DNA of 64,000 nucleotides from the human T2T-CHM13v2.0 reference genome, Homo sapiens. How positions within the stretch are numbered: the stretch's first letter is position 1; every line of letters starts with the position of its first letter. The stretch lies in NCBI RefSeq assembly GCF_009914755.1, contig NC_060947.1, one strand, 5' to 3'. The notes under the pieces were generated by a model. The model was not told the DNA's origin. It saw nothing but the letters and a program-made list of their open reading frames with translations, and searched no databases. Positions 1 to 4,722 of the stretch are shown here, one piece after another. Made by a program: the position numbers and the translations under genes.

Positions 1-490
1 TCACCATCGCCTCAGGAGATGCCTCCATGCTCTCCTTGGGTGACCCTTTCACACTCTCCTTGGGGGCTACTTCTGCGCTCCCCTTGGGAGGTGCTTCCAG
101 GCTCCCCTCTGGGGCTGCTTCCACGCTCACCTCTGGCAGTGCTTCCAGACTCACTTCCGGGGGTGCTTCCAGGCTCGCCTCCGGGGATGCTACTATGCTC
201 ACCTTGGGAACTGTTTCCAGGTCCACCTTCGGGAGTGCTTCTATGCTCAACTCGGGGGATGCGTCCATGCTCATCTCAGAATCATATGTGCTCACCACAG
301 GCGACACGTCCACGCTCACCACAGGGAATGAGTCCGTGCTCACCTCAGGGGCCATGCCCACACCTGCCTTGGGGGACGCTTCCATGCTTGTGTTGCAGAA
401 TACTTCCACATTCACCTGGGGGGGTGCATCCACACTTGCCTTGGGAGGTGTCTCTACTTTCTCCAAGGGAGACTCTTCTACTTTTGTTTG
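1..490 (-). repeat. Coding 24-bp degenerate tandem repeat (8-aa unit) in MAP7D3 exon 8
   Basis: Periodic GCTTCCA...CTCACCTC-like units on the + strand; peptide EASLEAPP/EVSLEALP/EVSVEAAP/EGSLEAPP. Confidence 0.85.
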
Positions 491-603
491 AGGAGGTATT
501 TTCATTGTCGACATGGGAAACATAACAGCCCTCAATTCGTCGCTAGTACATTTACGCAAGGGTACAGTGACATACTGCATTACATAATTGGTGACGCCTG
601 TAA
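1..603 (-). CDS. MAP7D3: MAP7D3 exon 8, partial (runs off the window); VTGVTNYVMQYV... followed by 8-aa repeats
   Basis: CAG| acceptor at 605-604; open frame to the window edge encoding EVSLEAPP-like repeats. Confidence 0.93.
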
Positions 604-1961: not shown

Positions 1962-3110
1962 TAAACATTTTTCAAAAGGTATTTGGAGGTGGCTTCCTTA
2001 AGACCTGGTAAATTAAACTAAAAAAAAAAAAAAAAAAAAAAAAAAAAGACCTGGTTAAATTTATCTGCCATCTCATCTTTAAGTATGGGTGGCAAATTTT
2101 CACCTAATCTTACCCCAAATTACCAAAGATAGACTACTTATGAATAAAGCTTTTAGTTAAATTAAATGTTATCTTTTAGTCCCTCACTTTTAGTGGAGAA
2201 AGCATTTTATTTACATATCTACATGTGCCTAAACAGTCACATTACACCAACAGTTTGTGCTACAGAAAATATAGTATGACTGGATTTGTATTAGCTATAA
2301 ACTTTTAAGACAAAATATTGAGATTTTTTGGATGGTGGTAATAGAAATATCTCACCATAGATTGGTGGGAAAGGGAGACTGGCAGAAAATAACCTGACAT
2401 ACATATAATTGGGCATAAAAAAGTCAGGAATTAGAACAAAAGAAATAAGGCTGCAGTACAAGAAAGTCTGTGATAGCATTTAGATGTGTTTTACTAATCA
2501 TATAAATACTAACAGAGAAAAAGCAAAGGGAGTGGGATATATACTGGAAAGGAAAAAGTGAAGGGGAAAAAAAAGAAAAAAAATCATAGGAACAATGCAT
2601 TAGTCCTTTCCATTACTGGGTGGGGGGGGTGGTCTTGCTATCCAAAGGCAAGTCTAATGCTATATGTAAACTATAAATGAGAAAGTCCACACAACTCTGA
2701 AGATGTTTCATGTTAAGAACAATCTTTAGGTCTCTAACTAAAAGCTGAAGGGTGGCTCTATGCTATTCTTCCATATTTTAGGTGAAAAAAGGAAGGTAGA
2801 GTAGGAAACTTTCTCCCTTGAAATGAGTGAAGGTTTTCTATATTTTTAAAACCCATAGAACTTTAAAATTTAACAAACACCTTCAAAGTTAGCTATCTCA
2901 TCCTACAAATTACCTGTCTCCCATATAACTGCCCTATCATGTTAGAAGTCATAAAATAAATATGCAACATCAAATGCTGGGTAAAATCACTAATATGGTA
3001 ACTACGGATTCAAACTATTTTGATGCCTAAATGCAACAAATTCAGTGATGAAGCCTGCTTTGAAATGCAAACACTTAACACCTCCTGGCTTTCCACCATA
3101 TGCCTGTTAC

Positions 3111-3236
3111 CTGGATCATCTTTTCCAGGGCTGGATAATGAAGCAGCACTTCTGCTTCTGGCTAATGACGCTTTTGTTGGGCTGAACAGACAACTGATTA
3201 AATTATTCTCTTGAGAACTGATATATGAGCAACGAG
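3111..3236 (-). pseudogene. Putative inactivated (fossil) MAP7D3 exon in intron 7, 126 nt, phase 1-1
   Basis: Open frame (A)RCSYISSQENNLISCLFSPTKASLARSRSAASLSSPGKDDP aligns without gaps to the MAP7 motif; intact donor CAG|GTAACA; acceptor position reads ATAT| instead of ATAG|. Confidence 0.7.
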
Positions 3237-3848
3237 ATATATGATGAGAACAAATCCAAAGGATTCCATTGGAGGTCTCACAAATGCAAAGCAAGAAAGA
3301 GCAATGCAAACTGCTCTCAACAGCAGCTTTCCCAGCAACACAAAACACTGAACACAGTCATCTGACTGGACTGCACTGTCAAAGAAGAGATCCTCAGAAT
3401 AAAAGGAGAAAGGCCACAGCATACATACCAAAATAACTCTAAGGAAAGAATCTAGGTAACATTTCAAACAGAGCCATTCCCCACCGTATGAAATTTATGG
3501 AGGAACTCACACTTGAGGAAAAAAGTTGCACATGGCAAAACAACTTTGAGAAAGATTCCTACAGATAGACAGCACTGAAAATCATAATGGTCAAGTCCAC
3601 TGCCAAAGGCTCCAAGGAAGTGAATAAACACTTTTGTTAAAAGTAAATTTTGTTGTAAATATCTTGCTCCAATAAATCTTCATGTTCATAAAGATCCCTG
3701 TGTCAATGACATTTGTTCTAATAGGATTTGACCTGAATCAATTAGGTGGAAGGTCTTCTGTAAAGGAATGGTTTGGTATGAAACAAAAAGCAACAAATAC
3801 ACGTGAAAGGAAAATGCTAGGGAAAGGTGTTAGAAAGAAACTACTTTA

Positions 3849-4626: not shown

Positions 4627-4722
4627 CACGTGGCTTCCTTTCGGCTTGTTCTTTATCAGTAGACGAATGTAGGTTACTATCTCTTCTATTTAAAGATGAG
4701 CTTCTCTCCTTGTCTGTTTTCC
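4627..4722 (-). CDS. MAP7D3: MAP7D3 exon 7 (96 nt, RKTDKERSSSLNRR...ERKPR)
   Basis: CTCTCTAG| acceptor, G|GTTAGT donor; cumulative CDS 736 nt. Confidence 0.93.

What the first reader, a model, noticed from the sequence alone, without database searches (positions are those of the whole stretch)
3111..3236. Fossil MAP7-family exon in MAP7D3 intron 7, apparently silenced by an AG>AT acceptor change
Seen in sequence: the minus strand 3236-3111 is a 126-nt open frame with an intact donor (CCAG|GTAACA). It is phase 1-1, so it would splice in frame between exon 7 (G+CT=Ala) and exon 8. Recalled knowledge: its peptide ARCSYISSQENNLISCLFSPTKASLARSRSAASLS aligns without gaps to MAP7 [35 protein letters not shown], a motif also present in MAP7D1 and MAP7D2 but absent from the canonical MAP7D3 protein as I recall it. 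Exactly where the alignment begins, the acceptor reads ...TTCTCATCATATAT| (3238-3237 = AT) rather than ..ATAG|. Inference: lineage-specific loss of a conserved basic, Ser-rich (RSxS phospho-type) module from MAP7D3.
Basis: partly seen in the sequence, partly recalled or inferred. Interest (0 to 1): 0.85.

Follow-up and report, generated by a model that had tools for sequence, protein, structure and literature searches.

The report
Dead conserved exon in human MAP7D3
An intron of the human MAP7D3 gene holds the intact-looking remains of a 42-codon exon that other mammals, lemurs included, still use, so the human protein lacks a short motif that the rest of this microtubule-protein family keeps.

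Summary
Minus strand 3236-3111 is a 126-nt, phase 1-1 open stretch with a GT donor, in MAP7D3 intron 7.

- **Paralogy.** A whole-genome six-frame search gave only three relatives: the matching exons of MAP7, MAP7D1 and MAP7D2. The search back from MAP7D1 returned the same four places.
- **Exon boundaries.** The three paralog exons are 114-123 nt and phase 1-1. Their acceptor AG sits in the column where the human relic reads AT.
- **Orthologs.** All 120 listed MAP7D3 orthologs carry this exon between their exon-7-like and exon-8-like sequence. They include xenarthrans, carnivores, horses, pangolins, moles, a bat and four lemur or loris genera.
- **Human.** The RefSeq table supplied with the task joins exon 7 directly to exon 8. 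This is a lineage-specific exon death inside primates.

It is open whether AG>AT caused the loss. An unnamed close relative's genomic ORF still implies G at that base. Yet it shares two human changes, R>C and L>F, at positions that are otherwise conserved. No anthropoid protein appeared among the exon-bearing hits. The exon may therefore have been skipped before the acceptor broke.

This is a new instance of a known kind of event. It matters mainly to people who study the MAP7 family.

The parts
3111..3236 (-). Relic exon, 126 nt, phase 1-1. It encodes (A)RCSYISSQENNLISCLFSPTKASLARSRSAASLSSPGKDDP. It is orthologous to the exon used in other placental MAP7D3 genes and paralogous to exons of MAP7, MAP7D1 and MAP7D2.
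3237..3238 (-). Former 3' splice site. It reads AT where all three paralogs read AG. The T at 3237 is the first base of the Ser codon in the read-through frame. The close relative P0002 has Ala (GCN) there, which implies G.
3105..3110 (-). Intact 5' splice-site motif, CAG|gtaaca. The paralogs have CAG|gtaaaa (MAP7, MAP7D2) and AGG|gtaggg (MAP7D1).
4627..4722 (-). Annotated MAP7D3 exon 7. It ends in phase 1 with G (…cca cgt g|gttagt). G+CT would give the Ala that begins the relic.
   Evidence: gene table supplied with the task
1..603 (-). Annotated MAP7D3 exon 8, the part inside the window. It starts cattcag|tt aca. It is homologous to the sequence that follows the exon in orthologs.
3209..3211 (-). 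Possible cryptic in-frame acceptor, ttctcaAG|AG. It would give a 99-nt exon that keeps ENNLISCLFSPTKASLARSRS.... It is unannotated and was listed only as a way the rival 'residual use' could work. The nearer AG at 3219-3218 gives 107 nt, which is out of frame and meets a stop.

Best explanation
Window 3236-3111 (minus strand) is a dead exon of MAP7D3. It is the human ortholog of a symmetrical (phase 1-1), roughly 120-nt coding exon that all four vertebrate MAP7 paralogs inherited. Other placental MAP7D3 genes, strepsirrhine primates included, still splice it in between the exons that are human exons 7 and 8. It encodes the linker motif ...E..LI(S/T)RLL.PTKAS(L/I)ARS(K/R)SAASLS.PGK.... In the lineage to humans it is no longer recognised. 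The 3' splice site now reads AT instead of AG, and exon 7 is joined directly to exon 8. Because the exon is a multiple of three in phase 1-1, skipping it keeps the frame, and the human protein simply lacks 42 residues.

Shown: homology, identical exon boundaries and phase, collinear position, use in other mammals, the AT in human, and absence from the annotated human CDS.

Inferred: that the exon is not spliced in at all in human tissues, and the order of events. I give about even odds that the G>T change was the silencing event rather than a later hit on an already skipped exon.
For: **Paralogy**
- The own-genome search with the 41-aa peptide scored 9 candidates and gave 4 matches. These were self, C23:19.63 Mb (E 1.1), C1:36.04 Mb (E 1.5) and one short match I take as chance, at C6:5.96 Mb.
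- The reciprocal search with the C1 exon scored 4 of 4 candidates. These were self, C6:137.57 Mb (E 8.5e-7), C23:19.63 Mb (E 0.07) and the relic (E 1.04).
- The only PDB match is ensconsin/MAP7 residues 218-248.

**Boundaries**
- All three paralog exons are phase 1-1 (123, 123 and 114 nt). Their acceptor AG lies in the alignment columns where the relic has AT.
- Identity to the paralogs by codon position runs 2>1>3 (for example 20, 27 and 10 of 37 against MAP7), the signature of divergence under coding constraint.

**Orthology and use elsewhere**
- Sloth MAP7D3 (P0067) is 70.5% identical to the annotated human N-terminus over 241 aa. It has the motif at 244-282 and exon-8-like sequence from 285.
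- All 120 listed orthologs carry the motif.
- The relic is 31 of 39 identical to the sloth exon (my count on the output), against 38-40% to the paralogs.

**Human loss**
- The RefSeq table supplied with the task has no exon here.
- The annotated CDS reads ...AERKPR-V-TGVTNYV....
Against: - No RNA-seq or junction data could be consulted, so residual inclusion in human is not excluded. In-frame open alternative acceptors exist, for example an exon start at 3209.
- The frame is fully intact and the donor is good, which is also what a still-used exon would look like.
- Causality of AG>AT is doubtful. P0002, an unnamed genomic ORF 89% identical over 112 aa, reads Ala where human reads Ser, implying G at the 3237 equivalent. 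Yet it shares C16 and F18 with human. R16 is kept in all 120 listed orthologs and in all three paralogs.
- No anthropoid protein is among the 120 exon-bearing hits. A human-like protein with the exon would score 232 bits, above the 219.5-bit cut-off.
- Whether T at 3237 is fixed in humans was not testable.
Confidence: 0.85

Rival explanations
1. The exon was already skipped or dispensable in the common ancestor of human and the P0002 species, probably a catarrhine or anthropoid ancestor, through changes other than the AG. Examples would be loss of enhancers or a weak pyrimidine tract. On this view AG>AT is a later neutral hit on a pseudo-exon. This is a variant of the best explanation and differs only in cause and date.
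For: - Human and P0002 share R16C and L18F.
- R16 is kept in all 120 listed orthologs and in all three paralogs.
- P0002 nevertheless implies G at the acceptor.
- None of the 120 exon-bearing hits is an anthropoid, while four strepsirrhine genera are listed. A human-like protein with the exon would have been listed, at 232.3 bits against a 219.5-bit cut-off.
- Between human and P0002 the exon has changed about as much as its flanks: 3 differences in 41 exon codons against 9 in 71 flanking codons.
Against: - Two shared substitutions are few. Horse also deviates at 2 columns in the leave-one-out count, and MAP7D3 evolves fast overall.
- No frameshift or stop has accumulated.
- The argument from the hit list is indirect, and clustering at 90% identity may hide isoforms.
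- The taxon of P0002 is unknown, and no DNA of it was available.
Confidence: 0.45
2. The exon is still used in human at a low level or in particular tissues, through a cryptic in-frame acceptor. The most plausible is AG at 3211-3210, which gives a 99-nt exon keeping the LARSRS core. RefSeq would then simply not list that isoform.
For: - The frame is open and the donor CAG|gtaaca is intact.
- In-frame open alternative acceptors exist at exon starts 3347, 3326, 3209, 3170 and 3161.
Against: - The RefSeq table supplied with the task gives no exon here in any of its 3 transcripts.
- The first AG downstream of the dead site (3219-3218) gives a 107-nt exon that is out of frame and meets a stop.
- Pyrimidine content before the in-frame sites is only 0.45-0.65.
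- 13% of random 42-codon stretches in this window are open anyway.
Confidence: 0.1
3. It is a chance open frame with a chance resemblance, or a fragment copied from a paralog, and not an orthologous exon.
For: Openness alone is unremarkable. E-values against single paralogs are near 1 in the genome-wide search.
Against: - The only genome-wide relatives are the three paralog exons, in both search directions.
- Boundaries and phase are identical.
- The relic scores 44 against a next best of 28 among 127,774 positions.
- It is about 79% identical to the exon at the same place in sloth MAP7D3, against 38-40% to the paralogs.
- It lies between the two exons that flank it in orthologs.
Confidence: 0.01

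Closest known systems
The homologous coding exons of human MAP7 (ensconsin residues about 213-250), MAP7D1 and MAP7D2
   Same: Same motif (S..E....(S/N/D)RL(L/M)TPT..S(F/S)LARS(R/K)S), same phase 1-1, and the same acceptor position to the base. Sizes are similar at 114-123 nt against 126 nt.
   Different: Those exons have AG acceptors, and MAP7's exon is present in the solved protein's sequence (7sgs_A). The relic has AT and is absent from the annotated human CDS. It also carries Cys and Phe in place of the conserved R and L of the RLL core. The gene names MAP7D1 and MAP7D2 for the C1 and C23 loci rest on chromosome positions I recall. MAP7 is confirmed by the PDB match.
The functional orthologous exon of MAP7D3 in other placental mammals, such as Choloepus, Propithecus, Microcebus, Lemur, Canis and Equus
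   Same: Same position between exon-7-like and exon-8-like sequence. The relic is 31 of 39 identical to sloth, and the ...PTKASLARS.SAASLS.PGK core is shared.
   Different: It is included in the predicted or annotated proteins of those species (all 120 listed), but not in human. Those records are mostly automatic NCBI predictions, and I did not see transcript evidence for them.
Lineage-specific exon loss (exon death, pseudo-exon) through splice-site mutation of a symmetrical exon
   Same: The ancestral exon is retained in outgroups. It has a single-base splice-site lesion, its frame-preserving length makes skipping tolerable, and the relic is still recognisable in the intron.
   Different: No transcript-level proof of skipping was available here beyond the annotation. 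The splice-site lesion may be secondary. That this is a known kind of event is general knowledge, and no specific paper was read for it.

Membership tests
MAP7-family linker exon (phase 1-1 exon encoding the RLLxPT...LARS[KR]S motif) | Sequence homology to the exon in MAP7, MAP7D1 and MAP7D2 | tested here: met
   (reciprocal genome-wide searches). (only PDB match is ensconsin 218-248). (38-40% identity, 10 invariant columns). (44 against 28 among 127,774 positions).
MAP7-family linker exon (phase 1-1 exon encoding the RLLxPT...LARS[KR]S motif) | Same exon boundaries and phase as the paralogs | tested here: met
   exons of 123, 123 and 114 nt, phase 1-1; the acceptor column coincides and the donor lies within one codon.
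MAP7-family linker exon (phase 1-1 exon encoding the RLLxPT...LARS[KR]S motif) | Collinear position in the gene, between the exons that flank it in MAP7D3 orthologs | tested here: met
   in orthologs the motif lies directly after ...KRSSSLNRRDSKLHSS...EEKP and directly before ...PLRSHSSDELK.... These are the counterparts of human exons 7 and 8.
MAP7-family linker exon (phase 1-1 exon encoding the RLLxPT...LARS[KR]S motif) | Canonical splice sites (AG acceptor, GT donor) | tested here: not met
   Acceptor AT at 3238-3237, against AG in the three paralogs. Donor GT is present. It is therefore a relic of the family's exon, not a working member.
MAP7-family linker exon (phase 1-1 exon encoding the RLLxPT...LARS[KR]S motif) | Inclusion in mature mRNA | not testable with these tools
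   Only the RefSeq table supplied with the task, which has no exon here in 3 transcripts. No RNA-seq or EST data are on hand.
Dead exon (lineage-specific exon loss) | The orthologous exon is functional in outgroup species | tested here: met
   All 120 listed orthologous proteins carry it, four strepsirrhine genera included. All eight listed Mustela erminea isoforms (X1-X8) carry it. These are predicted proteins.
Dead exon (lineage-specific exon loss) | Signs of relaxed constraint in the lineage that lost it | tested here: inconclusive
   R16C and L18F fall at columns invariant in 28 orthologs, and R16 is kept in all 120. There is no stop or frameshift. Overall divergence from lemurs is similar to that of neighbouring exon 7 (my count on the output). 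No ortholog DNA was available for dN/dS.
Pfam PF05672 (MAP7 / E-MAP-115 domain) | A match of the peptide to the Pfam model | tested here: not met
   the peptide matches no family. In orthologs PF05672 covers residues about 607-752, far downstream. The motif lies in the linker, outside any Pfam model.

The most novel reading that the evidence does not exclude
On the primate lineage to humans (no exon-bearing anthropoid protein was listed), MAP7D3 lost a basic, Ser-rich linker motif that every other vertebrate MAP7-family protein sampled keeps. In MAP7 this motif lies in the linker or P region, which holds a second microtubule-binding site. The loss would contribute to the odd behaviour of human MAP7D3, namely lower microtubule affinity than MAP7 and co-transport with kinesin-1. 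If so, results obtained with human MAP7D3 would not carry over to the exon-bearing MAP7D3 of other mammals such as carnivores or lemurs, and the reverse. The rodent state was not seen.
Probability: 0.15. Interest if true: 0.65.

Novelty: new member of a known kind. Interest (0 to 1): 0.5.

Why it matters
Human MAP7D3 is the form used in cell-biological and in-vitro work on kinesin-1 activation. Hooikaas et al. 2019 (PMC6446838; abstract and passages read) report that it binds microtubules more weakly than MAP7.

This finding shows that the human protein is a derived, shortened version. It lacks 42 residues, and their core is conserved across placental MAP7D3 and across the three paralogs.

In MAP7 the homologous residues (about 213-250) lie between the two coiled coils. 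That is the linker or P domain, for which Tymanskyj et al. 2018 (PMC6133550; passages read) report a second microtubule-binding site and many candidate phosphorylation sites. I did not find the P-domain boundaries in the text, so this placement is my inference.

The finding gives a simple, testable structure-function contrast. It is also a clean, datable case of exon death within primates. It is not a new kind of biology.

Tried and rejected
- **Word-indexed search with the 41-aa peptide, longer proteins.** It found only P0002. It missed the lemur and other orthologs that later showed to be in the database, so its silence about anthropoid proteins is not evidence.
- **The same tool with the 115-aa frame.** Again only P0002.
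- **Own-genome search with the exon 7 peptide.** Only self was found, so collinearity with the paralogs' upstream exon could not be shown that way. Collinearity with orthologs was shown instead.
- **Koizumi et al. 2017 on DCLK1 phosphorylating MAP7D1 Ser315.** The paper is not held. Only a second-hand sentence was seen. Local matching to unnamed representatives could not place residue 315. The idea that Ser315 lies in this motif stays an untested lead.
- **P-domain residue boundaries in Tymanskyj 2018.** Not found in the text.
- **Literature on loss of this exon.** Four searches turned up nothing on a MAP7D3 exon loss. PMC6964862 only lists MAP7D3 as poorly conserved between human and other mammals.
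- **Profile search false positive.** At least one hit, P0007, is a repeat-derived ORF matched in 21 weak stretches.
- **Open frame as evidence.** Rejected.
- **Chance similarity or a copy of a paralog.** Rejected (see rival explanations).

Full report
**1. What is in the sequence**

On the minus strand the window reads ...tttggatttgttctcatcatatAT|CT CGT TGC TCA TAT ... GGA AAA GAT GAT CCA G|gtaaca.
- The stretch 3236-3111 is 126 nt.
- It lies inside a 115-aa stop-to-stop frame, 3357-3010.
- A GT donor follows it at 3110-3109.
- AT, not AG, precedes it at 3238-3237.

Using the gene table supplied with the task, the coding pieces up to exon 7 sum to 70+99+84+164+118+105+96 = 736 nt, so exon 7 ends in phase 1.
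- Exon 7 ends ...cca cgt g|gttagt at 4627.
- Exon 8 begins cattcag|tt aca ggc at 603.
- The 126 nt would therefore enter as G+CT = Ala and leave as G+TT = Val, the same junction codon as in the annotated mRNA.
- A script that spliced it in found no stop.

The stretch is not in the list of masked repeats.

An open frame by itself means little here. In this window 16590 of 127744 42-codon stretches are open, and 33 of 6702 stop-to-stop frames reach 115 aa or more.

**2. It is a MAP7-family exon**

A six-frame search of the window's own 3.1-Gb genome with the 41-aa peptide scored 9 candidates and returned 4 matches:
- the relic itself;
- C23:19633710-19633817 (E 1.1, 44%);
- C1:36039085-36039195 (E 1.5, 41%);
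- a short match at C6:5958778-5958843 (E 2.35, 22 residues), which I take as chance.

The reverse search with the C1 exon scored 4 candidates, and all 4 matched:
- itself;
- C6:137565902-137566003 (E 8.5e-7, 68%);
- the C23:19.63 Mb exon (E 0.07);
- the relic (E 1.04).

Against the sequences of the Protein Data Bank, the single match at E<=10 among 177,635 distinct sequences was 7sgs_A, ensconsin (MAP7). Its residues 218-248 align to peptide residues 5-35. That stretch is identical to my translation of the C6:137.57 Mb exon.

The names MAP7D1 (chromosome 1, about 36 Mb) and MAP7D2 (X, about 20 Mb) for the other two loci rest on gene positions I recall.

Each E-value alone is weak. But the only relatives in the genome are the paralogs of the very gene that hosts the relic, and this holds in both directions. 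Within the window, the relic's summed ungapped identity to the three exons is 44. The next best is 28, among 127,774 positions in six frames.

**3. Same boundaries, same phase**

| Exon | Acceptor and first codons | Donor | Length |
|---|---|---|---|
| MAP7D1 | ccccAG\|AT CGC | CAG G\|gtaggg | 123 nt |
| MAP7D2 | ccctcAG\|CT CAT | TCA G\|gtaaaa | 123 nt |
| MAP7 | gtttAG\|CT CGC | GCA G\|gtaaaa | 114 nt |
| Relic | atatAT\|CT CGT | CCA G\|gtaaca | 126 nt |

All are phase 1-1. In the DNA alignment, columns 29-30 read AG in the three paralogs and AT in the relic. The A is invariant.

Identity between the relic and the paralogs is highest at codon position 2 and lowest at position 3. Against MAP7D2, MAP7D1 and MAP7 the counts are 19/24/12, 16/27/8 and 20/27/10 of 37. 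This is the pattern expected when divergence happened under protein-coding constraint. The relic is 14-15 of 37 identical to the paralogs, only slightly below MAP7D2 against MAP7D1 (17 of 37).

**4. Other mammals use it in MAP7D3**

A profile of the four peptides was searched against 1.84 billion representative proteins. It found 244 at E<=0.001 and 117 at E<=1e-10, and 150 were listed. At least one hit, P0007, is a repeat-derived false positive.

A local blastp compared the annotated human N-terminus with those hits.
- P0067 (932 aa) is 70.5% identical over 241 aa. Its exon-8-like sequence starts at residue 285.
- P0117 (1107 aa) is 63.7% identical over 223 aa.
- In both, the motif sits exactly between the exon-7-like and exon-8-like parts.

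A further search with P0067 residues 120-330 gave 2271 proteins at E<=1e-5, and the best 120 were listed with the sources' names. P0067 is MAP7D3 isoform X2 of Choloepus didactylus. All listed proteins are called MAP7D3 except two unnamed ones. They come from:
- xenarthrans, carnivores, perissodactyls and pangolins;
- two talpid moles and a bat;
- four strepsirrhine primate genera (Propithecus, Microcebus, Nycticebus, Lemur).

All 120 carry the motif. 119 match a strict pattern, and Rhinolophus reads MRLIAPTKASIARSKS. All eight listed isoforms of Mustela erminea (X1-X8) have it.

The relic is 31 of 39 identical to the sloth exon (my count). That is as similar as the neighbouring, still-used exons: 68% for exons 5-7 and 40% for exon 8.

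These ortholog records are mostly automatic predictions. I saw no transcript evidence for them.

**5. Human lacks it**

The RefSeq table supplied with the task lists no exon at 3111-3236 in any of three transcripts. The annotated CDS translates through ...AERKPR V TGVTNYV.... So this is a conserved exon lost on the lineage to humans after the split from strepsirrhines.

**6. Cause and date are open**

The word-indexed database held one close relative, P0002. It is a 158-aa unnamed ORF that reads straight through the exon and both flanks, so it is genomic and unspliced.
- It is 100 of 112 identical to the human frame, without gaps.
- If differences are counted as single-base changes, this suggests roughly 4-5% DNA divergence. 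That is a catarrhine-scale distance. This is my estimate only.
- Where human has ...H H I S|R C S Y, P0002 has ...H Y I A|R C S Y. Ser TCT (3237-3235) against Ala GCN means G at the 3237 equivalent.
- If the preceding Ile codon is ATA as in human, the AG acceptor is intact there.

G is thus ancestral (paralogs, P0002), and T arose after that split.

Yet P0002 shares Cys16 and Phe18 with human.
- Both fall at columns invariant in the 28 orthologs sampled one per species.
- Arg16 is kept in all 120 listed orthologs and in all three paralogs.
- The bat has Ile at column 18.
- Both human Cys codons (TGC, TGT) could be CpG transitions from CGN. This is inference.

Between human and P0002 the exon shows 3 differences in 41 codons, and the flanks show 9 in 71. 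That gives no sign of constraint, but also little power.

No anthropoid appears among the 120 exon-bearing hits. My local phmmer run reproduces the tool's bit scores, and it shows:
- a human-like N-terminus with the exon would score 232.3 bits, above the list's lowest score of 219.5;
- the annotated human form scores 142.9 bits.

This suggests that annotated anthropoid MAP7D3 proteins lack the exon. I therefore give about even odds to two readings: the G>T change killed the exon, or the exon was already skipped and G>T came later.

**7. Residual use**

Alternative AGs were enumerated.
- The nearest, at 3219-3218, gives a 107-nt exon that is out of frame and meets a stop.
- In-frame open options exist at exon starts 3347, 3326, 3209 (99 nt, keeping the LARSRS core), 3170 and 3161.
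- None is annotated, and RNA data were not available.

**8. What the motif may do**

The peptide matches no Pfam family. In orthologs PF05672 lies at about 607-752.

In MAP7 the exon encodes about residues 213-250, between the N-terminal microtubule-binding coiled coil and the C-terminal kinesin-binding domain.
- Tymanskyj et al. 2018 (PMC6133550; passages read) describe this middle 'P domain'. They report it as rich in candidate phosphorylation sites, as a second and tighter microtubule-binding site, and as required for axon branching and growth.
- Hooikaas et al. 2019 (PMC6446838; abstract and passages read) confirm microtubule affinity of the P-region. They report that human MAP7D3 binds microtubules more weakly than MAP7 and can be co-transported with kinesin-1.

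That the lost exon contributes to this difference is speculation. The ARS(K/R)S core resembles a basophilic-kinase site, which is my recollection. A link to the DCLK1 site Ser315 of MAP7D1 could not be checked.

**9. Novelty**

Four literature searches found no mention of this exon loss. One paper only lists MAP7D3 as poorly conserved between human and other mammals (PMC6964862; one passage read). Supplementary tables of exon-turnover studies were not examined.

Exon death through loss of a splice site in a symmetrical exon is a known kind of event, and this is a new, clean instance.

**10. Verdict**

- Interest is moderate.

Noticed in passing
window 1-603 (minus strand), annotated exon 8: The translated exon 8 is a long run of loosely repeated units, such as PEVS/PKVS...EA.P. 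It is only 34-40% identical to the orthologs' exon 8, far more diverged than the N-terminal exons at 64-70%.
   Followed up: no
P0003 (661 aa, unnamed representative), residues about 190-300: The motif and the stretch before it occur twice in tandem (...KTRRFQISALETSIINRLLTPTQASLAKSKSAAVLSAAGKDPSGNRYASS...KTRRFQISALETSIINRLL...). This is either a real exon-pair duplication in that species or an assembly or annotation artefact.
   Followed up: no
P0007 (1703 aa, unnamed representative): It ranks high in the profile search through 21 weak matched stretches. It is the translation of a tandem repeat (LMLPTLNILSRSPRSIQLPYA...) and not a MAP7 relative. The count of 244 hits therefore includes false positives.
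   Followed up: yes
window 2893-3009 and 3010-3357 (minus strand): In P0002 the human stop that ends the 115-aa frame is a Trp. The frame there runs on into what is a separate 38-aa frame in human. This shows that the long open frame around the relic is incidental intron sequence.
   Followed up: partly
L004 = G000:C6:5957278-5960343: A 22-residue match at 55% identity and E 2.35 to the relic peptide. It is far from the MAP7 exon at C6:137.57 Mb and was not returned by the reciprocal search. I take it as chance.
   Followed up: partly
(tool behaviour): The word-indexed search with the short peptide and 'longer' lengths missed lemur and other MAP7D3 proteins. These share about eleven 5-residue words with the query (my count) and are in the same database. 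A negative from that mode should not be read as absence.
   Followed up: yes
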